Source: Candidatus Gottesmanbacteria bacterium RIFCSPLOWO2_01_FULL_42_22 (lineage in GTDB: Bacteria; Patescibacteriota; Microgenomatia; 2-02-FULL-39-11). Taken from it: a DNA stretch of 64,000 bases. The stretch covers positions 2,612-66,611 of the forward strand of contig MFJU01000006.1 in the NCBI GenBank assembly GCA_001779315.1, given 5' to 3'. The position numbers and the translations under genes are program-made. A model generated the notes under the pieces. That model searched no databases. It was not told the DNA's origin and was given only the letters and a program-made list of their open reading frames with translations. Positions 7,717 to 62,449 of the stretch are shown one piece after another; the stretch's first letter is position 1; each line of letters starts with the position of its first letter.

Positions 7717-8826
7717 ATGAAAATATTAATTTTAAAAGAGAATCTTGTAAGAGCTTTATCGATTGTAGGAAAAGGGATTTCCCTAAGACCTCAATTACCT
7801 ATTCTGTCTCACATTTTACTCAAGGCTGCCAAAAACCGTCTGGAGTTTTTATCTACTAATTTGGAATTGGGAATTATATACCAAACTTCAGCCAAAATCG
7901 AAAAAGAAGGAGAAGTAGCAGTACCGGGAAAACTCCTGACGGAATTTATTAATTCATTAGCAGCGGACAAATTGGAAATTACGGCAACTGATAAAAGCCT
8001 GGAAATAAAAACAGAGACAAGCCGCGCCTCCTTTGCTATCGGTAACCCGGCTGACTTCCCCATTTTTCCCCAAACTGTTGCTTTTGACCGGAAGTTGCCC
8101 TTTTCAAAAATCAAAGATTCAATTATCCGTATGGCTTTTGCCGCATCTACCGACGAAGGCCGCCCCGTACTGACAGGGGTCAGGACCAGAATCACAGATG
8201 GAAAACTGTCGATGTCGGCAACCGACGGCTACCGTTTATCCAAAGAAGAAGTCGTTGTCATGGGAAAAAACGAGACCCTGGAAGTTATCATTCCCGCCCA
8301 ATCACTTTTGGAAGTCGTCAGAATTGCCCAGGAACTTAAAACAGAAGAACTGGGTATTTCCATTATTGAAAATAAAAACCAGGTAGTCTTTTCCCTACCC
8401 GATACCAAAATATACAGCCGGCTTATAGACGGCGAATTTCCCAATGTGGAAAAAATTATCCCCGACAGTTTTAAGACCAGAGTCATTCTGGACAAAGAGT
8501 TGTTTTTCCAAGCCGTCAAAACAACTTCTATTTTTGCCCGGGGAGCGGCCAATATCATCAAAATAAAAATCGAGAAAGAAGGGGTCAGGCTTTCAGCCAA
8601 CACTCCTCAAGTCGGTGAAGAAACTGATTATATTGAAGCCAAAATTGAAGGGGAAGAAAGCGAAGTGGCTTTTAATTTCCGTTTTTTACTGGATCTTCTC
8701 AATAACTTTCCGGAAAAAGAACTGGTTTTTGAATCCTCGGGACCTCTCTCTCCGGGTGTTTTTAGACCGAAAACGGATGAAATTTCATTTCTTCACATCA
8801 TTATGCCGGTCCGCGTCCAGGGGTAG
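7717..8826 (+). CDS. dnaN: DNA polymerase III beta sliding clamp
   Basis: 369 aa, DnaN-like three-domain length, directly after dnaA. Confidence 0.85.
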   Translation: MKILILKENLVRALSIVGKGISLRPQLPILSHILLKAAKNRLEFLSTNLELGIIYQTSAKIEKEGEVAVPGKLLTEFINSLAADKLEITATDKSLEIKTETSRASFAIGNPADFPIFPQTVAFDRKLPFSKIKDSIIRMAFAASTDEGRPVLTGVRTRITDGKLSMSATDGYRLSKEEVVVMGKNETLEVIIPAQSLLEVVRIAQELKTEELGISIIENKNQVVFSLPDTKIYSRLIDGEFPNVEKIIPDSFKTRVILDKELFFQAVKTTSIFARGAANIIKIKIEKEGVRLSANTPQVGEETDYIEAKIEGEESEVAFNFRFLLDLLNNFPEKELVFESSGPLSPGVFRPKTDEISFLHIIMPVRVQG

Positions 8827-10449
8827 ATCAACTAAGCGGTAATTAATGTCCAGGCGTTCTTTTTCAAAGGCAACCCAGGAGGCAGAATTATTTATCAGAT
8901 TTAAATTTTTTTCCTCAAAATTCTTCCAGGCAATATAGCGGCTGTTTCGGTAAAAAGCCATATCAGCCGGCACCGGTTCCACACCGACAAGCTGTGTACT
9001 GCCTGAATTTTTAATAAACATAAAAACAACTATTCCAGCGACTACATATACTGCAAATTTAGCAGCTGATAAAGTTAGTTTTAAAGCTGCTTCGTCCAGA
9101 CCCAGAGCTTGAATGATAGCCAAAGCTCCATTCCCTAAAAAAGGGACGACAAAAGCTAATGCTTGTTCTGCCAGTTTAAGTCCTGCTTTAGTGATAGCTT
9201 TAGTCGCTAATTTCCTAACTGCAGCTTCCGCCATGGCTTTAATCCGGCTGATAATTTGATGCATTATTGCTGCAACTATCTGCTGCATGATATTTGCCGC
9301 CAGGTTTTGCATATCAGCCATGTTAGAAACAAACGAAGATAAGGTTTTCCTAATTTTCGGTTTGCCTTGGCCAGGCGGTGGACCCCCCGGAGGTCCTTTG
9401 TGCTGACTGGTTATCTTCTCGGGCACCTTTTCCGCTAAAGGTTGATCGAATTTTGGTTTGGCTCCTTCCAGGACATTTTCAAAATGGGCTCCTTCAGCAA
9501 GGCCCCCTGAAAGGGCTGATAAATCGAATTCAGGTTTTGCCGCTGGAGGTTTGGCGATTTCTTTTTCAGCTTCTTTTCTTTTTGCCGCTTGTCCTGCCTC
9601 TGACTGAATCAACTGTTCTTCCGTTATACCTTCTGCAAAACCGGCTGCCAGTTTCTCCTCGGGGATTTTTCCTTCATAAATATAATCCAGTCTCGACTTT
9701 AATTGTTCTTCGGTTAATCTGGTATTTTGCGGATCAAGGGTATCGTGTTTAAGAACGCCTTCTGCCTTTTCAAAAATGCCTGCTTCTGTTACCCTGGCGA
9801 TTGCTTCTTCCCGGGCGGTTAAGAGGTCGTTTTTTAGTGCCCGTTCGGCTTTACCGTCAGCTTTTTTACCCTCTTTATTGCACTGGTCATGGTATATTTT
9901 TTTTGCCTGGCGGGAAAGTTCATCATCGATTGAGGCACGGGGATTTTTCTCCCGCCATTCGGAAAGCCCCTTTTTCAGCTGTTGGGAATTCTCGTCACTT
10001 AAAGTGAAACGGTCAATCGCTTTCTCTGTCTTGATTGATTCTTCCAGCCGTGCGGTATGCTGGTGGACGTGTTGGGCAATTTTAATCGCTGTACCCACAC
10101 GATCGTATCTATCCCTGGTGACTTCCCCTTTAAATCTGAAAAAAGCAAATTTGGTAGAATCTTTCTTTTTATTTTTTAGTCGGCGGCCGATTAATGCATG
10201 ACTGTCGATGACTCTTTGAAGTTCATGCGGATTCCGAAGATTCAACAATCGCTGATGGATGTTTTCGTCACTGATAGTTTTAAACGCTTTCTTGGTATCA
10301 TCAGTATATTTATATCCTCCTGCGCCTCCGGCAATTGTTAGTTGTATAAGGGAAGCCCAGGTTGCGGAATCCCGCTGGTCGAGGTCAAATCCCTGTTTTT
10401 CTTCTTCCGCAGTTTCCGGAGTAGACTTACCGTGTCCGGCTGTGTTCAT
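8785..10449 (-). CDS. Hypothetical protein with C-terminal TM segments, part of a T4SS-like gene cluster
   Basis: 554 aa; charged/coiled N-terminal two-thirds, Gly/Pro-rich linker (GPPGGPPPGQGKP), hydrophobic C-terminal segments; co-directional with and directly downstream of the VirB4-like ATPase. Confidence 0.35.
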   Translation of the reverse strand: MNTAGHGKSTPETAEEEKQGFDLDQRDSATWASLIQLTIAGGAGGYKYTDDTKKAFKTISDENIHQRLLNLRNPHELQRVIDSHALIGRRLKNKKKDSTKFAFFRFKGEVTRDRYDRVGTAIKIAQHVHQHTARLEESIKTEKAIDRFTLSDENSQQLKKGLSEWREKNPRASIDDELSRQAKKIYHDQCNKEGKKADGKAERALKNDLLTAREEAIARVTEAGIFEKAEGVLKHDTLDPQNTRLTEEQLKSRLDYIYEGKIPEEKLAAGFAEGITEEQLIQSEAGQAAKRKEAEKEIAKPPAAKPEFDLSALSGGLAEGAHFENVLEGAKPKFDQPLAEKVPEKITSQHKGPPGGPPPGQGKPKIRKTLSSFVSNMADMQNLAANIMQQIVAAIMHQIISRIKAMAEAAVRKLATKAITKAGLKLAEQALAFVVPFLGNGALAIIQALGLDEAALKLTLSAAKFAVYVVAGIVVFMFIKNSGSTQLVGVEPVPADMAFYRNSRYIAWKNFEEKNLNLINNSASWVAFEKERLDINYRLVDLPLDADRHNDVKK

Positions 10450-10459: not shown

Positions 10460-12415
10460 TTATACACTTTGGATTTGAGGCATATTGGCAGGCAATGGTT
10501 TTTCCTGCTTCATTTCACCGGGTTTGGAGGTTGCCAGTTGGTATTCCTGGGCGGAGGCGATAAATTGGACGGCAGCATGTGAAGCACCGGCAAAAAACAG
10601 GCCTTCCCCCACCCCGGCTGATAAGAGAAAGTGCTTTTCCCCGCTTGACAGATAAAAAACTTCAGCCAGTTTATCAATAGCTGCCGTTGACTGTTTAAGA
10701 AGCACCTGCAAACTGGAATTGGTGATGATGGCTTTGCCGTGGTCGGTCGACAGGAAATCTTCCACATCTTGCGTGATGGTGGTCACCCCTAAATAATATT
10801 TTCTGGCCCTTTTGGCAATGCTGTAAAGAAAAGTGGCAGAATCAGGATGCTTCATCAGGTACCAGGCCTCATCAACCACCAGGATTCTTTTTTTGACCTC
10901 CCTTTTGATTTTCGTCCAGATAAAGTCAAGAATGGAGAAAATGGCCATCGGCCTCAATTCCGCTTCCAGTTCTTTGATATTAAAAACCGTCAAGGCATTT
11001 TTTAAATGCAGATTGGACTGTTGGTTGAAAATACCTGCCAAAGATCCCTTAACAAATTTTTCGAGGCGTTCTGCCAATCTGCGGGCGTTCTCTTCTTCCA
11101 TGCCCAAAAGGACTTTATATAAATCTTCCATCAGGGGCGGTTCCCTTTTTTGGGTTTCTGGATCAGGTGTTATCCCCTTCTGTTTATAGGTGGATACCAA
11201 TGCTTTGTCCAAAAGGGCATCCTCGGTAGGGTTTAATTCTCCCATGATCACTCTCATTAGGCCGTGAAGCGAAAGGATTTTTAAGCCCAATTCGTTTTCC
11301 CCCTCAGATACAATCCCCGAAAGATCAAAAGGATTGATCTTAACGGGTGAATTGAAGGAAAAATCCAATTGGTCTCCTCCCAATGTTTTGGTGATATCCG
11401 TGTATTCGCCTTCAGGATCAATGACAAAGACGTCGGTGCCGAACATTAAAGTACGCATGACTTCCAGTTTGACCAGAAAGGATTTGCCTGAACCGGATTT
11501 GCCGAAGATGACGCTGTTGCTGTTTTCCAGAGAGAAGCGGTTGAAAATTACCAAAGAACCGTCATGCTCGTTGATCCCGTAAAGGATGCCTTCATTAGCG
11601 GTAAGGGAGGCTGTTGTGAATGGAAAAGTGGTAGCCAGTGATGTTGTGTCCATGTTTCTGGTTATATCCAGCTTGTCGAGAGACATAGGTAAGGTCGATT
11701 TGAAACCGTCTTCCTGGGAAAGGGTGGCGTGCTTGGGGACAATCAGTAAAGAGCCCAGGGTTGACTCAACTTCCTTTGATGATCTGTTCAGCTCTTCTAT
11801 AGTATCTGCCGGGATAGAAACATAGAGAGAAAACTGGTAAAATCTTTCAGCGCCTTTTGCCAGTTGGGATTGAAGGGCTAGAGCGTCATCGAGTGAGACC
11901 TGGACTGACGGATCAATAACTTTGCCTCTTTTCATATCGACCTGAATGGTGGCCTCCATTTCAGCGATTTTCCTTTTGAGGTCTTCTAATATCACTTTTG
12001 ATTCAGCGGGGTAAATATACATGGAAATAAAAAGCGATTTGTCAAAAGACAATAATGGGTGAAGCCAGTTGGAAGCTACATATCTGGGATAACCGGCTAC
12101 GAACAAGGTGCGGTAAAAAGTATTATTGACTCTGATGTTGTCAAAATCAACTTCGACGAGAGAAGGAGCGATAATATCGCGGATATTGACCAATCCTTTG
12201 GTCAATTTTTGTTTGGCCTCCAAGAGCTGATTGCTTTTAGCAGTATTGGCGGCCCGGTTATTGACAACCGCATGACTGATTACCGGCTGAACTGGCTGGC
12301 CTACTGTTTGCAGATTCGGTTTAACACCGGGTTGAACCGGCTGAAGTGGTTGGACTGCCGCCACCGGTTTAGGAAGGATTGAAACAGGCGCTTTTTTTTT
12401 AGAAAATAAGGACAT
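10460..12415 (-). CDS. virB4: VirB4/TrbE/CagE-family type IV secretion ATPase
   Basis: 651 aa; Walker A VIFGKSGSGKSFLV and Walker B RILVVDEAWYLM; overall VirB4 architecture. Confidence 0.7.
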   Translation of the reverse strand: MSLFSKKKAPVSILPKPVAAVQPLQPVQPGVKPNLQTVGQPVQPVISHAVVNNRAANTAKSNQLLEAKQKLTKGLVNIRDIIAPSLVEVDFDNIRVNNTFYRTLFVAGYPRYVASNWLHPLLSFDKSLFISMYIYPAESKVILEDLKRKIAEMEATIQVDMKRGKVIDPSVQVSLDDALALQSQLAKGAERFYQFSLYVSIPADTIEELNRSSKEVESTLGSLLIVPKHATLSQEDGFKSTLPMSLDKLDITRNMDTTSLATTFPFTTASLTANEGILYGINEHDGSLVIFNRFSLENSNSVIFGKSGSGKSFLVKLEVMRTLMFGTDVFVIDPEGEYTDITKTLGGDQLDFSFNSPVKINPFDLSGIVSEGENELGLKILSLHGLMRVIMGELNPTEDALLDKALVSTYKQKGITPDPETQKREPPLMEDLYKVLLGMEEENARRLAERLEKFVKGSLAGIFNQQSNLHLKNALTVFNIKELEAELRPMAIFSILDFIWTKIKREVKKRILVVDEAWYLMKHPDSATFLYSIAKRARKYYLGVTTITQDVEDFLSTDHGKAIITNSSLQVLLKQSTAAIDKLAEVFYLSSGEKHFLLSAGVGEGLFFAGASHAAVQFIASAQEYQLATSKPGEMKQEKPLPANMPQIQSV

Positions 12416-12421: not shown

Positions 12422-13090
12422 TTAGATACCTTCAACTAAAGGCTTGCTATAACCGATTGCTTCCCCCAATTTTTCACCGATTAAAGTCGGATTATAAATA
12501 TTATAAAAAAGCTCAACCAATTCCTGGGTCGGCAGCTGTCGGCCTTTAAGTCCGATCCTGCCTAATTGTCTTAAAATATGATCCCTTTTAGGATAAAGGG
12601 AGGTTTTGGCTCGGGAGAGGATATAATCCTTGGCAAAGGGGAGTTTTTTCTTTTTTCCGGATACAGAGAAAGCTTCTTTGATGCCTAATTCCAGGGGTGA
12701 AAAGGGCACAACCAGGTAGAATTTTTTTTCCAAAACCCTGTTTTCCTTAATAGTAGAAAGGATGAATTCACGGTAAGTACGAATTCTGTCCCTGATTACC
12801 GGATTCGGCTGCTTTGTTTCTTCCTGGACAATGTAGTCAATATAGGAGGAAATATCCATTCTTTTGGAAAGAATAACCACCTGCAGGGGAAAAGAGAGTG
12901 AATTTAAAAAAGAAGCATAAGCGTAAATAAGCGCATCCTGTTCATCTTCGGACAAAAGGCCGAAATTGACCGCTGTGGTTTCCAGAAGGACCGCCGCACC
13001 TGCCGTCCTTAAGATCAAAATATCATCAATAATATCCTCAATGTCCAGAAAATCCTGGGTGCTGGCTCTGATAGGCGCTGAATTTTGCAT
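12422..13090 (-). CDS. Hypothetical protein (T4SS-cluster associated)
   Basis: 222-aa ORF between the PrgI-like gene and virB4; no recognisable motif. Confidence 0.3.
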   Translation of the reverse strand: MQNSAPIRASTQDFLDIEDIIDDILILRTAGAAVLLETTAVNFGLLSEDEQDALIYAYASFLNSLSFPLQVVILSKRMDISSYIDYIVQEETKQPNPVIRDRIRTYREFILSTIKENRVLEKKFYLVVPFSPLELGIKEAFSVSGKKKKLPFAKDYILSRAKTSLYPKRDHILRQLGRIGLKGRQLPTQELVELFYNIYNPTLIGEKLGEAIGYSKPLVEGI

Positions 13091-13140: not shown

Positions 13141-14376
13141 TCAGATTCCGGGATTACTAAAAAGTTCTTTATTTAATTGTTCGCGGATTTGCTCTTTTTC
13201 TCCTTTGGCGCTGATTTCAATCGGGAGAAAAATTTTTCCCTCGAGATTGATTTCTGCGATATCAAAAGTATATCTTTTTAAAGGATCTTCAGCTTCCACA
13301 TAATATGTACCGTTTTGCAAGGGTGTGGCCGTCGAGAATTGTCCCAGGCGGTTGGTTTTTAAGGCGCGGTGAGGATTACCTTTGGTGTCTTTTATGGTCA
13401 GTATGATATTGGGCAACAATTTTTTACTGCTGTCTTTAATGATTCCCATAATAATATTGGGTGCTTGGGGCAATTTCGGGATACCGATTTCGTTTACAGC
13501 GCTTCTCGGGGTTACTGTTTTGATGGTTGGTTTGGCTGCCTCTTTTTCTTCTTTCGGTTTAATGATGGCCGCAGCAGATGTTTTAGCAAGCTCATCTTTC
13601 AGTTTTATTAATTCTTCTTCCAGTTTTTCTTTTTCCTCTCTCAAATTTATTATTTTATCTTCCTCTGCCGGTGGCCTACTTACAGGGAGGGAGACGGGTT
13701 TGACAGCGGGGATTGTTGTTTGAGCGGGAGGTGGAGAAGGAGTTTGTTGTAAGGACGCTACAGGAGGTTTAAGCGGTGCGACAGAAATAACAGGTTTTAT
13801 TTGAGGTTGAAAGGTGGCTGTCAATTTAGGCGGCTGGACAATGGTTGATTGAGGCATCGAAGGTTGAAAATTAGCCGCTAAGGTAGCGGCAGTTGTGGCA
13901 AAAAGCTGCATAGTTTGATCGACATAGTGTTTTTCCCTGATATTTATTTGCTGATAGGGTTGGGCGGGCAGGGACTGAAGATAATTTTCCAGTTTTTTTT
14001 TAGCATCGACATGAGCTTCCTGGTGATTTTGCGGCAGGACTTTTGTTTGGGCATTATAAGCATAGGCCAGAATATCCGGCATATCTTCGACCTTTTGCCA
14101 GAGGTATTGCGTCGGCGACAGAATGCTTTTGATAAAAGCGACAATCCATTTGTCCAGTGGCCTTTCTTGAATGGGCAGGAAAGCAAAGGCAAAGCCGGAT
14201 AAAACTGCGGCTCCGATAATCGGATATGACAAAAGAGGAGGCAAGGGTAAAGTCTTATAAAGGATAAAACCGATGATGAAACCGCTAATTAAATAGCCGA
14301 ATTGCCTTACCGTCATGTCCCCGATGAGATGGAATTGAAAACTGGAAATATTTCTGGGTATAGGGTGTTGCTCCAT
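13141..14376 (-). CDS. PrgI-like (VirB3-analogue) two-TM N-terminal domain fused to a long coiled-coil/Pro-rich extension and a C-terminal globular domain
   Basis: N-terminus DMTVRQFGYLISGFIIGFILYKTLPLPPLLSYPIIGAAVLSGFAFAFLPIQERPLDKW matches the PrgI-family pattern (T-RQ, two TM helices, G-PLD-W); 411 aa in total. Confidence 0.45.
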   Translation of the reverse strand: MEQHPIPRNISSFQFHLIGDMTVRQFGYLISGFIIGFILYKTLPLPPLLSYPIIGAAVLSGFAFAFLPIQERPLDKWIVAFIKSILSPTQYLWQKVEDMPDILAYAYNAQTKVLPQNHQEAHVDAKKKLENYLQSLPAQPYQQINIREKHYVDQTMQLFATTAATLAANFQPSMPQSTIVQPPKLTATFQPQIKPVISVAPLKPPVASLQQTPSPPPAQTTIPAVKPVSLPVSRPPAEEDKIINLREEKEKLEEELIKLKDELAKTSAAAIIKPKEEKEAAKPTIKTVTPRSAVNEIGIPKLPQAPNIIMGIIKDSSKKLLPNIILTIKDTKGNPHRALKTNRLGQFSTATPLQNGTYYVEAEDPLKRYTFDIAEINLEGKIFLPIEISAKGEKEQIREQLNKELFSNPGI

Positions 14377-31903: not shown

Positions 31904-32227
31904 TTATTTTTGCTTTCCTTTTCCAATTAAAAATAATCCGCCGGAAAGACCTAGGAAACTCAACAGATAAACAGCATTACCCGGTCCCGTGGATGGGATT
32001 TCACCTTTTTGAGTACTGGAACCTACGTTTTTTTCTATTGGTAGGTCAGTCGGTTTAATTTTAGCTGCTATAGGTGTCAGTGTCGGTTTGGCTTGAGCTA
32101 TTTTTGTGCTGACCCTGTTTTTTAGGGAATCAAAAAGCCTGCCTCTGTTCAGGATGACCGTAATTACCAGTATTATTACCAAAAAAGCTAAAATTAATCT
32201 TGTCGAGGTCATTCTAGAGCGGCCCAT
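31904..32227 (-). CDS. Small secreted protein with a C-terminal cell-wall-sorting-signal-like tail
   Basis: N-terminal TM/signal peptide; C-terminus IPSTGPGN + hydrophobic stretch (AVYLLSFLGLSGGLFLI) + basic tail GKGKQK, resembling an LPxTG-type tripartite sorting signal; 107 aa. Confidence 0.3.
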   Translation of the reverse strand: MGRSRMTSTRLILAFLVIILVITVILNRGRLFDSLKNRVSTKIAQAKPTLTPIAAKIKPTDLPIEKNVGSSTQKGEIPSTGPGNAVYLLSFLGLSGGLFLIGKGKQK

Positions 32228-32812: not shown

Positions 32813-33657
32813 TGGACAGGGAACGCTTAACCATTACTCTTAAAAAATCAATTCTTGAAAAAGTCGATCATATTATTGACGGCAGTCAGATCCGCAACCG
32901 CTCTCACGCCATTGAAACCCTGATTAGTAGAAGCCTCAATCCGACTATTGACAAGGCTGTCATTTTAGCCGGAGGCAGAGGCATTAATATGAGGCCTTTT
33001 ACTTTTGAGATGCCCAAAGGCCTTTTCCCGGTAGGCGGTAAACCCATTCTGGAACAGTTGATTGAACTTTTGAGAAAGTATGAAATCAGAAATATTCTTT
33101 TTTCCATAGGCCACCTGGGAGAAAAAATAGAGGAGTATTTCGGCGACGGCCGGAAATTCGGGGTCAATATTGAATATATTAAAGAGAAAGAAGAGGCGGG
33201 AACAGGCGGAGCTTTGGTGCTGGCTAAAAAATACTTAAACAACGATTCATTCCTGGTAGTTCACGGCGATATTCTGATCGATATCAACCTCAACGACATG
33301 ATAGCTTTCCATAAAAATAATGAAGCATTAGGCACAATAGCAGTGACGACTGTTCTTGACCCTTCTTCATACGGAGAGATAATCATGAATGGCACCAAAA
33401 TCACCCAATTTATCGAAAAACCGCAAAAAGGCAAGCAGAAATCCCAATTGATAAGCTGCGGTTTATATATTCTGGAAAAGGGCATTTTTTCTTATCTGCC
33501 GAAAAAAGGCCCCTCTCAGCTGGAAGATATTTTTGCCAAACTGGCTTCAACCGCCCAATTATCCGCTTTTCCTTTCAGCGGCCGCTTCTTGGATATCGGT
33601 ACGCCTAAATCCTATGAAAAAGCCATTAAAGAGTGGGGAAGTGTTAAAGCAGCGTAG
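32812..33657 (+). CDS. Ribbon-helix-helix (CopG-like) domain fused to a sugar-phosphate nucleotidyltransferase domain
   Basis: N-terminus RLTITLKKSILEKVDHII... (RHH beta-strand and helices), then ILAGGRGINMRPFTFEMPKGLFPVGGKPIL (NTP_transferase G-x-G-x-R motif); 281 aa. Confidence 0.5.
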   Translation: MDRERLTITLKKSILEKVDHIIDGSQIRNRSHAIETLISRSLNPTIDKAVILAGGRGINMRPFTFEMPKGLFPVGGKPILEQLIELLRKYEIRNILFSIGHLGEKIEEYFGDGRKFGVNIEYIKEKEEAGTGGALVLAKKYLNNDSFLVVHGDILIDINLNDMIAFHKNNEALGTIAVTTVLDPSSYGEIIMNGTKITQFIEKPQKGKQKSQLISCGLYILEKGIFSYLPKKGPSQLEDIFAKLASTAQLSAFPFSGRFLDIGTPKSYEKAIKEWGSVKAA

Positions 33658-33994
33658 GCAGTATTAATTTTATCGCCCCGCCAAAGCCGTCCGACATACC
33701 TAAAAACTGCAGAAGAACAATAAAGATAGCCCAGGAGGCAAAGACGATGACCAAACCCATAACGGCATGCAGTATTTTCTGCTGTGCTGTCTCCAGCTTG
33801 CCCTTGTCTCCTCCTGAGGAGATCCAGTTGAAAGCTCCCAAAAGCAGATTGACAAAAGCCCAGATAGTCGCTGCCACCAACAGAAGACCGATGAAGCCGG
33901 AAACAAATTTGCCGAGAATTTGCGGAGCTTTTTCCGGATCTTTTAATGAAGGAACGGCCGGATTGACGATTTGAGCTAGAAGTTCCCTTTTCAT
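33644..33994 (-). CDS. T4SS-pilin-like small two-TM protein (paralog 1 of 4)
   Basis: 116 aa; TM1-AGFNWISSGGDKGK-loop-TM2 architecture shared with the next three ORFs. Confidence 0.5.
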   Translation of the reverse strand: MKRELLAQIVNPAVPSLKDPEKAPQILGKFVSGFIGLLLVAATIWAFVNLLLGAFNWISSGGDKGKLETAQQKILHAVMGLVIVFASWAIFIVLLQFLGMSDGFGGAIKLILPTLL

Positions 33995-33997
33995 GTT

Positions 33998-34393
33998 TTA
34001 TTTTATTTTTAAATTCTGCAGCATGGCTCCCGGATCAAGAATATTTATGCCCAGCACTTTTCCGATTAAGGCTACAAAAACCCAGGCAAAGATGACAATA
34101 ACCAACCCGATTACGGCATTAGTCATTTTCTGCCTGGCGGCTTGAGTGTTATTTTTGTCACCTCCGGCGCTGATCCAGTTGAAGCCGGCAATTATAAATT
34201 GGATCATGAACCAGATAGCAGCTACAATGGTCAGAAAGCCCAATACTGTACTGAGGATTTTATTAAGTATGTTGCCGGTTTCCTGAGCGGTATCTGCCTG
34301 TCCGCTGCAGAGAAGTTTGGCAATCGGTCCCAGACCTTCGCCGCCGCCGATACAATCGTCAGCCCGGACAACTTCAGGAAAAAAAAAATTCAT
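33998..34393 (-). CDS. T4SS-pilin-like small two-TM protein (paralog 2 of 4)
   Basis: 131 aa; IIAGFNWISAGGDKNNTQAARQKMTNAVIGLVIV, conserved with paralog 1. Confidence 0.5.
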   Translation of the reverse strand: MNFFFPEVVRADDCIGGGEGLGPIAKLLCSGQADTAQETGNILNKILSTVLGFLTIVAAIWFMIQFIIAGFNWISAGGDKNNTQAARQKMTNAVIGLVIVIFAWVFVALIGKVLGINILDPGAMLQNLKIK

Positions 34394-34743
34394 GGTGCGA
34401 TTTTTAACTGCGGTTTCAGTAATGCTGTCGGGCCGTCAAAAAAGATGATGCCGATAATGGCAGCGATGAGGAATGAGGCCACCATGATTAAAAGTCCGAT
34501 AAATGACCAGTAAATTTTCGCCCAGGCAGAAGAGACTTTTTTGGGATCGCCGCCGGCTGCGATGAAGCCTATGCCGGCAATGACGATATTAAACAAAGCC
34601 CAGATGCCTCCGACAATCAGCAAAAGACGCAGAAAGGTATTCAAAAGGACTGTAATTCCGACAAATTTGCCCGTCGGATCGATGGCCTGAGGCAAGCCTT
34701 CCGGTGGTGTCACTTTACCGATAATATCTAACGGGTCAGCCAT
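34390..34743 (-). CDS. T4SS-pilin-like small two-TM protein (paralog 3 of 4)
   Basis: 117 aa; IAGIGFIAAGGDPKKVSSAWAKIYWSFIGLLIMV, conserved with paralogs 1 and 2. Confidence 0.45.
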   Translation of the reverse strand: MADPLDIIGKVTPPEGLPQAIDPTGKFVGITVLLNTFLRLLLIVGGIWALFNIVIAGIGFIAAGGDPKKVSSAWAKIYWSFIGLLIMVASFLIAAIIGIIFFDGPTALLKPQLKIAP

Positions 34744-35051
34744 TAAAATAATCCTTTCATGGAATTAAAGGAAACATAATTAATGATCTGCAGTATCCAG
34801 TATGAGGCAAAAATCAGGATAAGGCCGATCACAGAATAGGTTAAAAATGATTTTGCCCTTTCCGCTCCCTGGGGATCTCCCGAATTGCCCGAAGACACCA
34901 CGGCAAAACCGGCGATAAAAACTAAAATAAAAAAAATGACACCGGCGATAAGCAGGATGTTCGGTAAAAACGAGGATACCAATGAGGCTAATGTGGGAAA
35001 GTTTAAAGCAGGAGCATATTTATCTTCTATTCTGACCTGGGCAAGCTGCAT
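34743..35051 (-). CDS. T4SS-pilin-like small two-TM protein (paralog 4 of 4, more divergent)
   Basis: 102 aa; FIAGFAVVSSGNSGDPQGAERAKSFLTYSVIGLILI, same architecture. Confidence 0.4.
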   Translation of the reverse strand: MQLAQVRIEDKYAPALNFPTLASLVSSFLPNILLIAGVIFFILVFIAGFAVVSSGNSGDPQGAERAKSFLTYSVIGLILIFASYWILQIINYVSFNSMKGLF

Positions 35052-35080
35052 AATTTAAGTTTAAGAGCATGAATTGTCTT

Positions 35081-35109
35081 TTGTCAAATGGGGAAACAGG
35101 AATTATAAT
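35081..35109 (+). promoter_or_regulatory. Sigma-70-type promoter (-35 TTGTCA 35081-35086, 17-nt spacer, -10 TATAAT 35104-35109) upstream of the ECF sigma gene
   Basis: Consensus -10 with 5/6 -35 at ideal spacing, about 45 nt upstream of ATG 35156. Confidence 0.5.
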
Positions 35110-35155: not shown

Positions 35156-35719
35156 ATGAAAAAGAAGACAGACAGACAGGCTGAAAAAGTGCTGGTTAAC
35201 CGTATCCTGACAGGGGATGAGGCTGCCCTGAACAGTTTTTATAAGAAATACTATCCGTCCCTTTATACTTTTATCAGTAAAAAAATAAACAGCCGGGAAG
35301 ATATTGAAGAAATCCTGCATGATTCTTTCCTGGCGACGATTGAGGCTTTGAGGGATTTTTCCTTTAAATGCTCACTTTTTACTTTTATTTGCTCAATTGC
35401 CAATCATAAAGTCATTGATTTCTACCGCCGTAAAAAAATCAAAAAGATTGTTTTTTCCAAATTTGAAAGCATTGAGCCTTTATTATCATCCATTTTCGGT
35501 CCGGAAGAAATTTTGGATGAGGAAATCCTCAAGGAAAATATTAAAACTACTTTTAAAAAACTGGCCCCGTCGTATGAAAAAATTCTGAAACTAAAGTACG
35601 TTCACGGCTTTTCCGTTTCGGAAATAGCCGGGAAACTGAATATTACTTTCAAAAGTGCTGAAAGCCAGTTATTCCGTGCCAGAAAAGCTTTTGTTTCCGT
35701 TTATTCTTATGGATCATGA
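35156..35719 (+). CDS. ECF-type RNA polymerase sigma-70 family factor
   Basis: Region-2-like FYKKYYPSLYTFI...DSFLATIEAL and region-4 HTH VHGFSVSEIAGKLNITFKSAESQLFRARKAF. Start moved downstream of the promoter (track start 35069). Confidence 0.6.
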   Translation: MKKKTDRQAEKVLVNRILTGDEAALNSFYKKYYPSLYTFISKKINSREDIEEILHDSFLATIEALRDFSFKCSLFTFICSIANHKVIDFYRRKKIKKIVFSKFESIEPLLSSIFGPEEILDEEILKENIKTTFKKLAPSYEKILKLKYVHGFSVSEIAGKLNITFKSAESQLFRARKAFVSVYSYGS

Positions 35720-35951
35720 CAGAATTTACCGGTCGTTGGTGGCTAAAATGCAGGAGATGGCGGTGGTACCGCCGCAAAGGCTGGGATTGCTTACCCCTTT
35801 CTATAAAAAAGTCGTGCCCGTTTTTAAAACCTCTCCCTTAAAAAGCCTTTTGTTTTTATCAGTGGCCGCTACATTTAGCGCTTTTATACTGTTCGGCTCA
35901 AGGTTGGTCAAACTGGCTTCTATTTTGCAGGCCGGAGCCTTCCATCCATGA
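35709..35951 (+). CDS. Putative anti-sigma factor (short, single TM)
   Basis: ATG 35709 overlaps the sigma stop by 11 nt; 80 aa with a C-terminal TM helix (SLLFLSVAATFSAFILFG). Position and architecture fit an ECF anti-sigma; no sequence motif. Confidence 0.35.
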   Translation: MDHDRIYRSLVAKMQEMAVVPPQRLGLLTPFYKKVVPVFKTSPLKSLLFLSVAATFSAFILFGSRLVKLASILQAGAFHP

Positions 35952-36568
35952 ACTATTTGTACGGCTTGGTCATTTTTATCCGCAATACAATCGGCATAAT
36001 CCGTAATCCGTATTCAACATACAGAAAAATTGCCACTTCGGAAAACTCAAATTTAAACCAGACTTTCTGTCTTTATCTTTTGGTGGTTGCCTATTTTCTG
36101 TTAACCTCCTTAATCAGGATAGGACTGAAAAACCCGTATCTTCTAACCGTCAAATTTAATCTTCTGACAATCGGTAGCGCTTCAGGTTTTTTGCTGATGA
36201 TATTTTTGTTTTATGCTTTGGGCAAGCTTTGGCAGGTACCCTCATTCAAGCTCGACAGGGTAATTGTTCTTTGGACATATTCACTCTGGCCGACTTTATT
36301 ATGGTTTACGGTAACTGCGCTTTTGTACCGTTTAGTACCCCCGCCCAGAACATGGACACTTTCCGGCGGCTCTTTAAGCATAGTTTTTATAACCTATTCG
36401 CTGACATTGCTTTTTTGGAAGCTGATACTGTTTTATTTAACATTGCGTTTTGCCCTCAAGCTGGATTTATTTAAAGGCATTATTTCCGTCTTTCTGATTG
36501 TACCGCCGGTGGCAATTTACAGCCTCATCTGTTATAAAATGGGGATTTTCAGGATACCCTTTATATAA
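35948..36568 (+). CDS. Hypothetical polytopic membrane protein
   Basis: 206 aa, about 5 TM segments; 4-nt overlap with the preceding ORF. Confidence 0.35.
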   Translation: MNYLYGLVIFIRNTIGIIRNPYSTYRKIATSENSNLNQTFCLYLLVVAYFLLTSLIRIGLKNPYLLTVKFNLLTIGSASGFLLMIFLFYALGKLWQVPSFKLDRVIVLWTYSLWPTLLWFTVTALLYRLVPPPRTWTLSGGSLSIVFITYSLTLLFWKLILFYLTLRFALKLDLFKGIISVFLIVPPVAIYSLICYKMGIFRIPFI

Positions 36569-37723: not shown

Positions 37724-37741
37724 AAAAGTTAAGGAATTACG

Positions 37742-39919: not shown

Positions 39920-39923
39920 ATAT

Positions 39924-40223
39924 ATGATTTCACCGGTAAAAATCTGGCGCAATCAGAAAAAAATCAGGGAAGTATTGAATCAAAGCGGTAAAATTATCAG
40001 TTTTACCCGTGTATTTATGCCGCCGGCCGGTTTTGAAAATCAGGCACCTTATGCAGTTGTTTTAGTCAAACTGGCCTCGGGCCGAAATTATATCGCCCAA
40101 CTGGTTGACTTTGAAGAAAAACATTTGAAAATAGGGCAAAAAGTAATAACGGTTTTAAGAAGGACCAGAAGCCCGAGCGAGGAAGGCATTATACCCTACG
40201 GCGTTAAATTCAAGCCGCTATGA
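39924..40223 (+). CDS. DUF35 OB-fold scaffold protein of the thiolase/HMGCS complex
   Basis: 99 aa; position immediately after thiolase/HMGCS and OB-fold-like sequence (AVVLVKLASGRNYIAQLVDFEEKHLKIGQKV). Confidence 0.5.
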   Translation: MISPVKIWRNQKKIREVLNQSGKIISFTRVFMPPAGFENQAPYAVVLVKLASGRNYIAQLVDFEEKHLKIGQKVITVLRRTRSPSEEGIIPYGVKFKPL

Positions 40224-42137: not shown

Positions 42138-42138
42138 T

Positions 42139-60100: not shown

Positions 60101-62449
60101 ATGGATATGTATGAGCCAACATTATTATACGATTCTCTCCTGAATCTTGGTTTCACTTTTACTATTCTGATTTTAGTATTATTCGGGCTCGCTCTTTTTA
60201 CCTATTTCATTTTTCTATGGTGGAAGTACCGAAACCGCGAGAAACAGAGTTTGGAATTTGTGCTTTTGCAGATATGCGTACCAAAGGATAATGAGGTAAA
60301 AATTGATGCTGCAGAACAATTTTATTCCTCACTTTCCTCCCTGTCCCACGGCGGCTTTCTCTCTTTCATGAAAGATAAGGACCATATTTCTTTTGAAATC
60401 GTCGGCCGTCCCGGAGATATCCGCTTTTATGTCTCCGTCCATCACCATTTGCGGGATCTTATCGAAAAACAGATTTACGGTATGTACCCGGGAGCGGAGA
60501 TTAAAGAAGTGGATGAATATAATATTTTTGATGAAAAGGGCAAAGTGGCTTTTGCTTCATTTATTTTAAAAGGCTCGGATTATTTGCCGATGAAGACATT
60601 TAAAGATCTGCCGGTTGATCCGATGTCAGCCATCACCTCAAATTTAGGCAAAATGCAGGCCGGTGAGGGAGCGGCAATTCAAATTTTGGTGACTCCTGCC
60701 GCAGGCAAGTGGAAGAGTTCCGGAAAAAGTTATCTTTCAGGAGTGAAAAAAAACGAGGCTAACCCGGAAAAAGCGCATTATAACGTCGACCATAAAATCC
60801 TGGAAACCATAGAAAACAAATTAGCCAAACCGGGTTTCTTAACGACGATCAGAGTAGTTGTTTCCTCAACCACGTTGGAATCCGCCAAGATGCATCTTCA
60901 TAATATCGAATCGGTTTTTGCTCAATTTTCCTCAGACCAAAACCATTTAGGGGGAGCCAAACTCATGTTCAAAAGTTCATTCGTCATCGATTTCATTTAC
61001 CGTTATTTTCCCATCCTTAATTGGCCTTATAAACAGTACAGTGTTTTAACCAGCGAGGAATTGGCGACCCTTTTCCATTTTCCCAATAAAAGTGTGGAAA
61101 CCCCCCACATTCAATGGGTAACTTCCAAAAGGGCACCGGCACCGCCGGAAATTCCCACCTCCGGGCTTTATCTGGGTAAAAGCACTTACCGGGGCATTTC
61201 CAGACCGATCCATATGGATTTGGATGACAGACGCCGCCATGTATATATTATCGGTAAAACGGGGGTAGGCAAATCGGTCCTTTTGAAAGACATGATCCTT
61301 CAGGATATTAAAGAGGGCAAAGGTGTAGCGGCTATCGATCCCCACGGGGATTTAGTTGAGGGAATTTTACCGATGATACCGCCTGAAAGGGCTGAAGATG
61401 TTATCTATTTTGACCCTTCAGATACCGACAGGCCGATGGGGTTGAATATGCTTGAAGCCAAGACTGAAGAGCAAAAACACTATATCGTCTCATCAATCAT
61501 CGGCTTGATGTATAAACTTTACGACCCCCAGAAAACCGGTATTATCGGACCCAGATTTGAACATGCCATCAGAAATGCCATGCTGACAATTATGGTTGAA
61601 CCGGGCGCTTCTTTCGTCGAGGTGGTCAGAGTTTTAACCGATTCAGCTTACGTACAGGAACTGCTGCCGAAAGTCCAGGATCCGATTGTCAGAAGGTATT
61701 GGACAGACCAGATCGCCCAGACATCCGATTTCCATAAATCTGAAGTATTGGATTATATCGTTTCCAAATTCGGCCGTTTCGTCACCAACAAACTGATGCG
61801 TAATATCATCGGACAAAGTAAAAGCGCCTTTGATTTCCGCAAAGTTATGGATGAAGGTAAGATTCTTCTGGTTAATCTGGCCAAAGGAAAATTAGGCGAG
61901 GAGAATTCATCCTTTTTGGGATTGATAATGGTGCCGAAGATATTGGTTGCGGCCATGAGCCGGGTGGATACACCGGAAGAGCAGCGCCGGGATTTTTTCC
62001 TTTATGTTGACGAATTTCAGAATTTCGCCACACCCGATTTCGCCCAGATTCTGTCCGAAGCCAGGAAATTCCGCCTTAATCTTTGCGTGGCCAACCAGTT
62101 TATCGGCCAGATGGAAGAAGAAGTAAAGAATGCTGTTTTCGGCAATGTCGGCACACTGGTGACCTTCCGGGTGGGAGTGACTGATGCCAATTATCTCCAG
62201 CATTGGTTTACACCTGTTTTCAATGAGAACGACCTGATCAACGTCGACGTCTATAATGCCTATATCAATACCATTATCAGCAATAAACCGGTACCGCCTT
62301 TCTCGGTTGATTTGCGCAAAGATATGGCTGAGTTTAAAAAGCTGGAAAACAAGCAGGTAGCCAAAGCCATTCTGCAACTTTCGCGTCTCAAATACGGCCG
62401 ACCCCGGGAACTGGTCGAAGCCGAAATCTCCCAACGGGCTAAACTCTAA
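60101..62449 (+). CDS. VirD4/TraG-like type IV coupling protein (HerA/FtsK-superfamily ATPase with N-terminal TM anchor)
   Basis: N-terminal TM helices (ILILVLFGLALFTYFIFLWW); Walker A YIIGKTGVGKSVLLKDM; Walker B DFFLYVDEFQNFA; 782 aa. Confidence 0.55.
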   Translation: MDMYEPTLLYDSLLNLGFTFTILILVLFGLALFTYFIFLWWKYRNREKQSLEFVLLQICVPKDNEVKIDAAEQFYSSLSSLSHGGFLSFMKDKDHISFEIVGRPGDIRFYVSVHHHLRDLIEKQIYGMYPGAEIKEVDEYNIFDEKGKVAFASFILKGSDYLPMKTFKDLPVDPMSAITSNLGKMQAGEGAAIQILVTPAAGKWKSSGKSYLSGVKKNEANPEKAHYNVDHKILETIENKLAKPGFLTTIRVVVSSTTLESAKMHLHNIESVFAQFSSDQNHLGGAKLMFKSSFVIDFIYRYFPILNWPYKQYSVLTSEELATLFHFPNKSVETPHIQWVTSKRAPAPPEIPTSGLYLGKSTYRGISRPIHMDLDDRRRHVYIIGKTGVGKSVLLKDMILQDIKEGKGVAAIDPHGDLVEGILPMIPPERAEDVIYFDPSDTDRPMGLNMLEAKTEEQKHYIVSSIIGLMYKLYDPQKTGIIGPRFEHAIRNAMLTIMVEPGASFVEVVRVLTDSAYVQELLPKVQDPIVRRYWTDQIAQTSDFHKSEVLDYIVSKFGRFVTNKLMRNIIGQSKSAFDFRKVMDEGKILLVNLAKGKLGEENSSFLGLIMVPKILVAAMSRVDTPEEQRRDFFLYVDEFQNFATPDFAQILSEARKFRLNLCVANQFIGQMEEEVKNAVFGNVGTLVTFRVGVTDANYLQHWFTPVFNENDLINVDVYNAYINTIISNKPVPPFSVDLRKDMAEFKKLENKQVAKAILQLSRLKYGRPRELVEAEISQRAKL

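What the first reader, a model, noticed from the sequence alone, without database searches (positions are those of the whole stretch)
33644..35051. Four tandem paralogs of small two-TM T4SS-pilin-like proteins sharing an AGFxWISAGGD loop motif
There are four consecutive minus-strand genes of 102-131 aa. Each has the architecture variable N-terminus, TM1, a conserved loop (IAGFNWIS[AS]GGDK / IAGIGFIAAGGDPKK / FAVVSSGNSGDPQ), a short polar linker and TM2 (IGL[VL]I[VM]). The N-terminal ~30 residues differ completely between copies, so the family is diversifying. This is the pattern of VirB2/TrbC-like pilins and of the T4SS_pilin family abundant in CPR. Tandem diversification suggests antigenic or host-specificity variation. 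The ECF sigma/anti-sigma pair immediately upstream (35156-35951) may control them.
Basis: partly seen in the sequence, partly recalled or inferred. Interest (0 to 1): 0.55.

Follow-up and report, generated by a model that had tools for sequence, protein, structure and literature searches.

The report
Four-gene VirB2-like pilin operon, CPR bacterium
Four small neighbouring membrane-protein genes in a Gottesmanbacteria (CPR) genome belong to a published class of type IV secretion "pilin" gene arrays, but they are four old, conserved subunit types made together, not fast-changing surface variants.

Summary
Four overlapping or abutting minus-strand genes (33644-35051; 102, 117, 131 and 116 aa) encode paralogous two-helix hairpin proteins with an invariant GGD turn.

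Three pass Pfam's cut-off for PF18895 (T4SS_pilin) and the fourth misses by 0.7 bit. The organism is a Candidatus Gottesmanbacteria relative (CPR, Microgenomates). A monoderm-type T4SS core (VirB4 of the CD1110 family, TrsD-like, PrgI-like) lies next to dnaA/dnaN, 19-21 kb away.

Tandem arrays of 2-11 such genes in Patescibacteria are already published (Wang 2023; Quinonero-Coronel 2025), so this is a new member of a known kind.

The "diversifying / antigenic variation" reading is not supported:
- The order P4-P3-P2-P1 is conserved across 33 genomes (same-position best hit in 93.8% of comparisons).
- Each paralog has its own conserved N-terminal motif.
- The genes evolve no faster than their neighbours.

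The ECF sigma factor is a conserved divergent neighbour (23/33 loci). However, the operon's conserved promoter is housekeeping-type (TTGACA-N18-TAnACT) and implies a leaderless mRNA.

Small increments: most members lack signal peptides, and all four have a Mycoplasma ICE "pilin-like" family as best NCBIfam hit.

The parts
34743..35051 (-). P4, first gene of the operon: 102-aa VirB2-like two-helix pilin paralog with N-terminus MQLAQ-VRIED and turn SGNSGD.
   Evidence: ORF. PF18895 31.5 bits against a cut-off of 26.6. NF045849 25.9 bits. Two hydrophobic segments. Conserved as the first array gene in related loci.
34390..34743 (-). P3: 117-aa paralog. Orthogroup N-terminal motif DP(I/L)G..P; turn AGGDPKK.
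   Evidence: ORF. PF18895 27.3 bits. NF045849 19.9 bits. TAATG overlap with the P4 stop. Positional orthologs.
33998..34393 (-). P2: 131-aa paralog. Orthogroup motif C-x-G-G-x-G-L-G-P-I-A-x-x-L-C (Cys14, Cys29); turn AGGDK. Its Sec signal peptide, present in orthologs, is truncated here.
   Evidence: PF18895 34.1 bits and TrbC 20.7 bits. NF045849 39.7 bits against a cut-off of 40. AF2 hairpin H36-75 / H80-113. Ortholog signal peptides. A stop 15 codons upstream excludes a longer ORF.
33644..33994 (-). P1, last gene: 116-aa paralog. Orthogroup motifs LAQ-I-x-N-P at the N-terminus and LPTL at the C-terminus; turn SGGDK.
   Evidence: PF18895 25.9 bits, 0.7 below the cut-off. NF045849 25.2 bits. 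AF2 hairpin H23-59 / H64-97 with mean pLDDT 80. Its stop overlaps the convergent NTP-transferase gene by 14 nt, as in L004.
35058..35087 (-). Predicted operon promoter TTGACA-N18-TAAACT. The -10 element ends 6 nt before the P4 ATG, so the predicted mRNA is leaderless.
   Evidence: Scan. It is the only exact match in 64 kb, with 0.03 expected by chance. The same element is present in 15 of 20 related loci; the gap to the ATG is 6-9 nt in 13 of them.
35081..35109 (+). Predicted promoter of the sigma operon, TTGTCA-N17-TATAAT. Its -35 hexamer overlaps the pilin -35 hexamer back to back.
   Evidence: Scan, 11 of 12 consensus matches. The overlapping arrangement recurs in 6 of 20 loci.
35156..35719 (+). 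ECF (group 4) sigma factor, 187 aa, divergent neighbour of the array.
   Evidence: PF07638, PF04542 and PF08281. TIGR02937 89 bits against a cut-off of 42.9. Divergent and adjacent in 23 of 33 related loci.
35709..35951 (+). 80-aa conserved protein with one C-terminal TM helix, overlapping the end of the sigma gene: possible minimal anti-sigma factor (unproven).
   Evidence: ORF. One TM segment at residues 43-67. Orthologs in 19 loci share the motif V.KM.EV...PPQ..GP.TPLYK. No Pfam or NCBIfam hit.
35948..36568 (+). 206-aa polytopic membrane protein of unknown function, co-conserved with the sigma and small-protein pair.
   Evidence: ORF. TM-like segments. Homologs in 19 loci. No family hit.
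10460..12415 (-). VirB4-type T4SS ATPase, the presumed motor that would act on the pilin-like subunits.
   Evidence: NF045971 CD1110 family, 403.8 bits against a cut-off of 325. PF19044 and PF12846.
12422..13090 (-). TrsD-like / VirB4 N-terminal-domain-like protein, 222 aa.
   Evidence: NF041427 TrsD at E=1e-5, and the NF045975 N-terminal region at E=2e-8, both below their cut-offs.
13141..14376 (-). PrgI (VirB3-like) domain protein, 411 aa.
   Evidence: PF12666, 37.2 bits against a cut-off of 27. One TM segment.
8785..10449 (-). 554-aa protein of unknown function in the T4SS core cluster, abutting dnaN. Charged and coiled-coil-like, with a C-terminal TM hairpin.
   Evidence: ORF. No family hit. 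TM-like segments at residues 430-483.
60101..62449 (+). Possible T4SS coupling-protein-like ATPase, 782 aa, with an N-terminal TM region and a P-loop domain.
   Evidence: PF10412 TrwB_AAD_bind 28.6 bits and DUF87. Weak TraD and VirD4-like NCBIfam hits. Homologs lie 6-8 kb from the array in 9 related loci.

Best explanation
The four genes are one operon encoding four distinct VirB2-like ('T4SS_pilin', PF18895) subunits of the chromosomal, monoderm-type type IV secretion system of a Gottesmanbacteria-related CPR bacterium.

Shown here:
- They are homologous two-helix hairpin membrane proteins of this family.
- They are tightly packed behind a single conserved, strong housekeeping-type promoter.
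- The four types and their order are conserved across genera, under purifying selection.
- A VirB4 / TrsD-like / PrgI-like core lies on the same chromosome next to dnaA.

Inferred:
- The operon is transcribed constitutively as a leaderless polycistronic mRNA.
- Overlapping stop and start codons couple translation, so the four proteins are made together.
- Each inserts with the N- and C-termini outside and the basic GGD(K/P) turn in the cytoplasm. In this genome that happens without a Sec signal peptide.
- The VirB4 machine then extracts the subunits from the membrane and assembles them into a tube or short pilus across the cell wall. The conserved turn would line the lumen and the paralog-specific N- and C-terminal tails would face outward.
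- Because all four types are retained in fixed order, they most likely co-assemble or play distinct structural roles (such as main subunit, base or tip), rather than serving as interchangeable variants.
For: Family:
- PF18895 scores above or at the cut-off for all four genes, and 47 of 47 relatives hit it.
- TrbC/VirB2 is the second most frequent Pfam hit, in 9 of 47 relatives, best E = 1.6e-5.
- NF045849, the 'pilin-like conjugal transfer protein' of Mycoplasma ICEs, is the top NCBIfam hit for all four and matches 34 of 47 relatives.

Fold: confident hairpins for P2 and P1.

Topology:
- The turn region carries 22 K+R per 100 aa, against 6.6 in the N-tails and 5.0 in the C-tails.
- 30 of 195 relatives have a signal-peptide-like N-terminal segment.
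- Cys pairs occur in the N-tails.

Operon and promoter.

Old, fixed paralogs:
- The order P4-P3-P2-P1 holds in nearly all of the 33 loci, and the same-position gene is the best hit in 1425 of 1520 comparisons.
- Each orthogroup has its own conserved N-terminal motif.
- dN/dS is 0.09-0.14 and identity 67-78%, like the neighbours.

T4SS machinery in the window.

Literature:
- The pilin series is essential and lies inside the T4SS cluster in Southlakia epibionticum (PMC10633639).
- 441 arrays of 2-11 genes were found, enriched in Microgenomatia (PMC12102498).
Against: - No pilus or any assembly has been seen for any member of this family. The link to VirB2 is remote: TrbC scores are below the cut-off, there is no hit to any solved-structure sequence, and Foldseek finds nothing significant.
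- The array is 19-21 kb from virB4 here, and no VirB4 homolog lies within 10 kb of the array in any of the 33 related loci. Physical linkage to the machinery is therefore weak in this clade.
- Three of the four proteins have no signal peptide and the fourth has only a stub, unlike canonical VirB2/TrbC.
- No VirB6-like polytopic protein was recognised in the core cluster.
- Co-assembly is inferred only from conservation and operon structure.
- dS is near saturation (1.5-1.9), so the dN/dS values are rough.
Confidence: 0.65

Rival explanations
1. Membrane-embedded T4SS channel or VirB3-like accessory subunits. The hairpins would stay in the cytoplasmic membrane as part of the translocation channel around VirB4 and never form an extracellular filament. 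This is presumably what their relatives do in wall-less Mycoplasma.
For: - The best NCBIfam hit is a Mycoplasma ICE family. The review PMC12857230 describes small Mycoplasma ICE membrane proteins (CDS13, CDS15) as VirB3-like, and no pili are described there.
- Gram-positive T4SSs generally lack pili.
- Most members have no signal peptide.
- The structural evidence cannot tell one kind of hairpin from another.
Against: - No VirB3 (PF05101) or PrgI (PF12666) similarity appears at E<=1 for any of the four, whereas TrbC/VirB2 does appear.
- A separate PrgI/VirB3-like protein already exists in the core cluster.
- Four to eleven copies behind a near-consensus promoter suggest an abundant polymerising subunit rather than a stoichiometric channel part.
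- The conserved, paralog-specific external tails with Cys pairs suggest exposed surfaces.
Confidence: 0.2
2. Variant-surface repertoire. The paralogs would be interchangeable pilin versions kept to vary antigenicity or host range. This is the first reader's reading, and PMC12102498 also floats it by analogy with Bartonella and Anaplasma.
For: - The paralogs differ most in the tails predicted to be exposed.
- Copy number varies from 4 to 11 between genomes, mostly by gain or loss of P1-like genes at the distal end.
- The literature speculates along these lines.
Against: - The core set P4-P3-P2 and a P1 copy keep their identity and order across genera, with 93.8% same-position best hits.
- The 'variable' tails carry conserved orthogroup-specific motifs.
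- The evolutionary rate equals that of the neighbouring genes, with dN/dS of about 0.1.
- There is one promoter and the coding regions overlap, so no mechanism for expressing one copy at a time is visible.
- No repeats or recombination signals were looked for beyond this.
Confidence: 0.1
3. Envelope-stress regulon. The genes would be small membrane proteins controlled by the adjacent ECF sigma / anti-sigma pair, with a role in membrane homeostasis unrelated to type IV secretion.
For: - The divergent sigma gene is adjacent in 23 of 33 loci. This includes five loci where the rest of the synteny (small protein, 206-aa protein) is not detected.
- The array is not next to virB4 in this clade.
Against: - The conserved promoter is TTGACA-N17/18-TAnACT, which is the housekeeping type. 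Relaxed versions lie upstream of dnaN and rplY, and it lacks the AAC/CGT elements of ECF promoters.
- Seven of 33 loci have no sigma homolog within 10 kb.
- The family-level links are to T4SS pilin models and to an essential T4SS cluster in Saccharibacteria.
Confidence: 0.05

Closest known systems
VirB2-like pilin arrays of Patescibacteria (PF18895): the essential pilin series in the Southlakia epibionticum ML1 T4SS cluster (Wang et al. 2023, PMC10633639) and the 441 arrays catalogued by Quinonero-Coronel et al. 2025 (PMC12102498)
   Same: Same Pfam family. Tandem, sequence-divergent paralogs (published mean identity about 25%; 28-32% global here). Monoderm MPF-FATA-like T4SS with VirB4 and PrgI. 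T4SS core beside dnaA/dnaN as reported for Microgenomatia. No relaxase seen in the window.
   Different: Here the array is detached from the T4SS core by 19-21 kb and sits divergently next to an ECF sigma factor. The papers do not mention a sigma neighbour, positional orthology of array members, promoters or signal peptides.
Canonical VirB2/TrbC/TraA conjugative pilins of diderm bacteria (PF04956)
   Same: Small protein with two hydrophobic helices joined by a short basic turn. Inferred topology has both termini outside and the loop in the cytoplasm. There is weak profile similarity (P2 at E=5e-4; 9 of 47 relatives).
   Different: Below the family cut-off. No long cleavable signal peptide in this genome. 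Not encoded next to virB3/virB4. Four co-conserved types instead of one major pilin. The host is a monoderm. Cyclisation, lipid binding and polymerisation are untested.
Mbov_0395 / MMCAP2_0565 'pilin-like conjugal transfer protein' of Mycoplasma ICEs (NCBIfam NF045849)
   Same: Best and essentially the only NCBIfam hit for all four paralogs (E from 3e-10 to 4.5e-4). It covers the whole hairpin core and belongs to a monoderm MPF-FATA-type conjugation system, whose VirB4 model is also the second-best hit of the window's VirB4.
   Different: All four are below the equivalog cut-off of 40 bits (P2 scores 39.7). The Mycoplasma gene lies in a mobile element that has a relaxase-type lifestyle. Here there is a chromosomal multi-paralog array with no sign of mobility.
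Tandem virB2 paralogs of Bartonella and Anaplasma (antigenic or host-interaction variation)
   Same: Several VirB2-like genes in tandem.
   Different: The features that define a variation system were tested here and not found. Duplications are old, order is fixed, exposed tails are conserved within orthogroups, and selection is purifying.

Membership tests
PF18895 T4SS_pilin | Pfam HMM score at or above the gathering cut-off (26.6 bits) | tested here: met
   P2 34.1, P4 31.5 and P3 27.3 bits. P1 scores 25.9 bits, 0.7 below the cut-off, but is clearly homologous to the other three. All 47 of 47 relatives hit the model.
PF18895 T4SS_pilin | Core of about 70 aa formed by two membrane helices joined by a short turn | tested here: met
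   Two hydrophobic segments in each protein. AF2 hairpins for P2 and P1 with core pLDDT of about 90.
TrbC/VirB2 pilin (PF04956) | HMM score at or above the gathering cut-off (27.9 bits) | tested here: not met
   P2 scores 20.7 bits (E=5e-4). The other three have no hit at E<=1. Nine of 47 relatives hit at E<=0.01.
TrbC/VirB2 pilin (PF04956) | Long cleavable N-terminal signal peptide | tested here: not met
   P1, P3 and P4 have none. P2 has an 11-residue stub, and a stop 15 codons upstream excludes a longer ORF. Signal peptides are present in many P2 orthologs and a few others, 30 of 195 in all.
TrbC/VirB2 pilin (PF04956) | Encoded within the T4SS operon beside virB3/virB4 | tested here: not met
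   The array is 19.3 kb from the PrgI-like gene and 21.2 kb from virB4. No VirB4 homolog lies within 10 kb of the array in any of the 33 related loci.
TrbC/VirB2 pilin (PF04956) | Polymerises, with phospholipid, into an extracellular conjugative pilus | not testable with these tools
   Needs microscopy or biochemistry. No structural study of a Patescibacterial T4SS pilus was found in the library.
NF045849 Mbov_0395 family pilin-like conjugal transfer protein | NCBIfam equivalog score at or above 40 bits | tested here: not met
   P2 39.7, P4 25.9, P1 25.2 and P3 19.9 bits. This shows homology, not equivalog membership.
VirB3 / PrgI | Profile similarity to PF05101 or PF12666 | tested here: not met
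   No such hit at E<=1 for any of the four, nor among the 47 relatives at E<=0.01. A separate PrgI-domain protein lies at 13141-14376.
Type IV pilus (T4P) pilins | Class III signal peptide (G|F/M-x-x-x-E) and an N-terminal methylation motif | tested here: not met
   No such motif in the first 40 residues. No N_methyl Pfam hit.
Antigenic-variation pilin repertoire | Recent lineage-specific duplication and accelerated change of exposed segments | tested here: not met
   Positional orthology across 33 loci. Conserved orthogroup N-terminal motifs. dN/dS of 0.09-0.14 and identity equal to the neighbours.
ECF (group 4) sigma factor (gene 35156-35719) | Sigma-2 and sigma-4 domains only, with scores above the curated cut-offs | tested here: met
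   PF07638 44.5 bits (cut-off 21.1), PF04542 and PF08281. TIGR02937 89 bits (cut-off 42.9).
ECF-sigma regulon member (the pilin operon) | ECF-type promoter (AAC-containing -35, CGT-containing -10) upstream of the operon | tested here: not met
   The conserved promoter is TTGACA-N17/18-TAnACT. This is a consensus-based argument; the specificity of this particular sigma factor is unknown.
Anti-sigma factor (gene 35709-35951) | Anti-sigma domain homology or a zinc-binding HxxxCxxC motif, and co-transcription with the sigma gene | tested here: inconclusive
   The gene overlaps the end of the sigma gene, has one TM helix and is conserved in 19 loci. It has no family hit and no Cys or His motif.

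The most novel reading that the evidence does not exclude
The CPR 'pilin arrays' may not be variant repertoires. They may instead be the parts list of an obligately heteromeric VirB2-type tube. Under this reading, four (up to eleven) ancient, non-interchangeable hairpin subunits in fixed gene order are made in step from a leaderless, translationally coupled operon. They insert without signal peptides and are assembled by a monoderm T4SS. The family would have been inherited with the MPF-FATA machinery, as its Mycoplasma ICE relative suggests, rather than borrowed from diderm systems. A conserved ECF sigma module next door would tune this apparatus.
Probability: 0.25. Interest if true: 0.6.

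Novelty: new member of a known kind. Interest (0 to 1): 0.3.

Why it matters
T4SS pilin-like arrays are among the few CPR features shown to be essential for the epibiotic lifestyle, yet their role is unknown (PMC10633639, PMC11665869).

This locus adds no new kind of system. The comparative results do sharpen the question in three ways:
- The paralogs look like conserved, distinct building blocks rather than variants. That predicts each one is individually required and that all are co-expressed.
- The link to a Mycoplasma ICE family suggests monoderm conjugation systems do have VirB2-like parts. This bears on where the CPR pilins came from.
- The conserved near-consensus leaderless promoter and the sigma neighbour give concrete handles for expression studies.

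Tried and rejected
- **Profile against solved-structure sequences.** A 47-sequence family profile found no hit even at E<=10.
- **Foldseek of the P2 model against the PDB.** Nothing below E=1. An archaeal conjugation pilin (8dfu) appears only at rank 29 with E=6. A bare helical hairpin is not discriminating, so this was treated as inconclusive.
- **tblastn of P2 against 72,556 plasmids.** No match, so there was no annotated conjugative-plasmid context to draw on.
- **First related-locus scan.** The broad alignment had no conserved stretch to search with. A narrower P2 alignment worked. All loci were therefore ascertained through a P2-like gene.
- **Hidden signal peptide for P2.** Rejected, because an in-frame stop lies 15 codons upstream.
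- **Type IV pilus (T4P) pilins.** Considered and rejected.
- **Holin or bacteriocin-type proteins.** Only sporadic sub-threshold Pfam hits.
- **Further family members near the T4SS core.** None found.
- **Sortase motif in P1.** The C-terminal LPTL of P1 is not a sortase signal: no Gly, no following TM segment and no basic tail.
Full report
**1. The observation**

Four consecutive minus-strand ORFs occupy 33644-35051: P4 34743-35051 (102 aa), P3 34390-34743 (117 aa), P2 33998-34393 (131 aa) and P1 33644-33994 (116 aa). Their junctions are TAATG (1-nt overlap), ATGA (4-nt overlap) and a 3-nt gap, as expected for one translationally coupled operon.

The quoted motifs are present. The four proteins align at 28-32% identity, and M1 and the GGD, A and GL positions are the invariant columns. 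Each has two long hydrophobic segments.

An HMM built from the four finds only these four among 316 ORFs of the window, at E of 1e-40 to 1e-48. The next best ORF has E = 0.45.

**2. Family and fold**

| Model (cut-off) | P2 | P4 | P3 | P1 |
|---|---|---|---|---|
| PF18895 T4SS_pilin (26.6 bits) | 34.1 | 31.5 | 27.3 | 25.9 |
| TrbC/VirB2 PF04956 (27.9 bits) | 20.7 | none | none | none |
| NF045849 Mycoplasma ICE pilin-like (40 bits) | 39.7 | 25.9 | 25.2 | 19.9 |

- Of 47 family members (the four paralogs plus database homologs), all hit PF18895. Nine also hit TrbC/VirB2, which is the second most frequent family.
- No VirB3 or PrgI similarity appears.
- AlphaFold2 gives confident helical hairpins. 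P2 has H36-75, a turn at AGGD and H80-113. P1 has H23-59, a turn at SGGD and H64-97. Core pLDDT is about 90 in both.

**3. Organism and machinery**

The closest named homologs and the syntenic loci are from Candidatus Gottesmanbacteria (CPR, Microgenomates).

The window contains dnaA (6148-7521) and dnaN (7717-8826). Directly beside them is a minus-strand T4SS core:
- a 554-aa protein of unknown function (8785-10449);
- VirB4 (10460-12415), a full member of the Gram-positive CD1110 family at 403.8 bits against a cut-off of 325;
- a TrsD-like 222-aa protein (12422-13090);
- a PrgI-domain protein (13141-14376).

A possible coupling-protein-like ATPase lies at 60101-62449. The pilin array is 19-21 kb from the core.

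**4. What is already known**

Quinonero-Coronel et al. 2025 (PMC12102498) searched 3,035 Patescibacteria genomes with PF18895 and PF04956, alongside other pilin HMM profiles. They found 441 arrays of 2-11 VirB2-like genes, especially in Microgenomatia and Saccharimonadia, with a mean identity within arrays of 25%. They also found T4SS cores near dnaA/dnaN. They suggested that the arrays might help adaptation to different hosts.

Wang et al. 2023 (PMC10633639) showed that the pilin series inside the T4SS cluster of Southlakia epibionticum is essential. A 2025 review calls these the only monoderm T4SSs that may build pili.

The kind of feature is therefore published, and this locus is a further member.

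**5. Comparative analysis: testing the 'diversifying' claim**

Thirty-three related genomic loci were recovered.

- **Array size.** It ranges from 4 to 11 genes, with a mode of 6. It is 4 in the window and its closest relatives. The apparent 3 in L007 comes from an N-run that fuses two genes, and the L010 array is cut by the contig end. The extra genes are mostly P1-like copies at the distal end.
- **Gene order.** The first four positions are P4-P3-P2-P1 in nearly all loci. In 20 loci, the gene at the same position is the best hit in 1425 of 1520 cross-genome comparisons (93.8%, against 25% by chance). Median scores are 74-89 bits for same-position pairs and 44-47 bits for different positions.
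- **N-termini.** Each orthogroup has its own conserved N-terminal signature:

| Orthogroup | N-terminal motif | C-terminal motif |
|---|---|---|
| P1 | LAQ-I-x-N-P | LPTL |
| P2 | G-x-G-L-G-P-(I/F)-A, usually between two Cys | none noted |
| P3 | D-P-I-G | none noted |
| P4 | M-x-L-A-Q-V-x-I | none noted |

- **Rates.** Against the closest genome (L004), the four proteins are 67-78% identical with dN of 0.15-0.26 and dN/dS of 0.09-0.14. Five neighbouring genes show 63-85% identity, dN of 0.11-0.35 and dN/dS of 0.06-0.11. dS is near saturation.

The duplications are therefore old and each paralog is under purifying selection. Recent diversification or antigenic variation is not supported for the core set.

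**6. Topology**

Many P2 orthologs, and a few P1 and P3 orthologs, carry a normal Sec signal peptide ending in an A-x-A-like site. That places the mature N-terminus outside the membrane.

Across 195 array proteins:
- the 14 residues from the turn onward hold 22 K+R per 100 aa, against 6.6 in the N-tails and 5.0 in the C-tails;
- 30 proteins have a signal-peptide-like segment.

N-tails often contain Cys pairs; in the window's P2 these are C14 and C29. The inferred topology has the N- and C-termini outside and the turn in the cytoplasm, as for VirB2 and TraA (established knowledge of those families).

In this window P1, P3 and P4 have no signal peptide. P2 retains only MNFFFPEVVRA, and an in-frame stop 15 codons upstream rules out a longer ORF. 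Insertion must therefore be independent of a signal peptide (inference).

**7. Expression and the sigma factor**

The intergenic region carries TTGACA-N18-TAAACT on the minus strand (35058-35087). It ends 6 nt before the P4 ATG. It is the only exact match in the 64 kb window, where 0.03 are expected by chance.

The same element is found in 15 of 20 related loci. It lies 6-9 nt from the start codon in 13 of them. Relaxed versions lie upstream of dnaN and rplY. This is a housekeeping-type promoter, and it predicts a leaderless mRNA (inference).

The divergent gene (35156-35719) is a bona fide ECF sigma factor. Its own predicted promoter, TTGTCA-N17-TATAAT, overlaps the pilin -35 hexamer back to back, an arrangement seen in 6 of 20 loci.

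The sigma gene is:
- divergent and adjacent to the array in 23 of 33 loci;
- within 2 kb in 3 more;
- absent within 10 kb in 7.

In five loci the sigma gene is adjacent even though the following small protein and the 206-aa membrane protein are not detected.

The 80-aa single-TM protein that overlaps the end of the sigma gene may be a minimal anti-sigma factor, but no homology supports this.

The conserved adjacency hints at a functional link. Direct ECF control of the operon is not supported by the promoter sequence.

**8. A link to monoderm conjugation**

All four paralogs, and 34 of 47 relatives, have NF045849 as their top NCBIfam hit, and it is the only hit below E=1e-3. This model is the 'Mbov_0395 family pilin-like conjugal transfer protein' of Mycoplasma ICEs. 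The Mycoplasma ICE VirB4 model is also the second-best hit of the window's VirB4.

The 2025 paper states that VirB2 homologs are absent from MPF-FATA systems and leaves open that they were co-opted from other T4SS classes. It does not mention Mycoplasma. The review describes small Mycoplasma ICE proteins as VirB3-like.

The hits here suggest that the CPR family has relatives inside monoderm conjugation systems. They also keep alive the rival reading that these hairpins are membrane channel parts rather than pilus subunits.

**9. Verdict**

The evolutionary and functional gloss is not.

The best-supported reading is an operon for four distinct, co-produced VirB2-like subunits of the chromosomal T4SS (confidence 0.65). 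Whether they form a true pilus is open.

This is a new member of a known kind, with modest interest (0.3). The incremental points are positional orthology, signal-peptide-less members, the conserved leaderless housekeeping promoter, the sigma neighbour and the Mycoplasma ICE link.

Noticed in passing
window 6148-14376: dnaA and dnaN directly abut the minus-strand T4SS core (554-aa unknown, VirB4, TrsD-like, PrgI-like). The window therefore probably spans the replication origin region, the arrangement reported for Microgenomatia.
   Followed up: partly
window 55721-59619: An AdoCbl-II (B12) riboswitch precedes an 877-aa protein with no family hit, a DUF4430 protein and a DUF6580 / ECF-S-component-like membrane protein. 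This may be a cobalamin uptake operon. It lies just after a ribonucleotide reductase with a TSCPD domain (52819-55173).
   Followed up: no
window 62500-62574: A tRNA-Ile gene with anticodon TAT (UAU), an uncommon way for bacteria to read AUA codons.
   Followed up: no
window 14537-18571: The ClpB-like ATPase is 1344 aa, far longer than usual. The second AAA module ends near residue 781 but the D2-small domain starts at 1113, which implies an insertion of about 330 aa. There is also an N-terminal extension of about 200 aa. No intein or other domain was reported for either region.
   Followed up: no
window 31904-32227 (-): A 107-aa protein with an N-terminal TM helix. Its C-terminus has IPSTG followed by a hydrophobic stretch and KGKQK, which looks like a sortase-type cell-wall sorting signal.
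   Followed up: no
window 33998-34393 (-), versus L004 and P0004-P0019: The Sec signal peptide present in most P2 orthologs is reduced to an 11-residue stub in this lineage. The same stub is seen in the 99% and 91% identical metagenomic proteins P0001 and P0002.
   Followed up: yes
L005, L008, L012-L017, L020, L024, L025, L027, L031, L033 (array positions 5 and 6): Six-gene arrays carry two further conserved subunit types that the window lacks. One has a signal peptide, WITSGGDKAG and a C-terminal IPTPF or FPKPY. The other has an N-terminal Cys pair (LKCLEVVF) and a C-terminal FTIPQ. The four-gene state of the window's clade is probably a secondary loss.
   Followed up: partly
window 35081-35087: The -35 hexamers of the pilin promoter and the sigma promoter overlap on opposite strands (TTGTCAA / TTGACAA). 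The two RNA polymerase binding events may therefore compete. The arrangement is conserved in 6 of 20 related loci.
   Followed up: partly
window 36575-43804: A mevalonate-pathway gene cluster follows the sigma, small-protein and 206-aa genes on the same strand. It includes HMG-CoA reductase, an HMG-CoA synthase-like gene, a thiolase, three GHMP-type kinase or decarboxylase genes and a prenyltransferase, and it is syntenic with GCA_000999095.1.
   Followed up: partly
window 44044-48562 (-): Two class A penicillin-binding proteins (transglycosylase plus transpeptidase) lie in tandem.
   Followed up: no
L015 57-825, L017 35-804, L024 106-453: Some related genomes have a second, smaller group of pilin-like genes about 9 kb upstream of the main array.
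   Followed up: no
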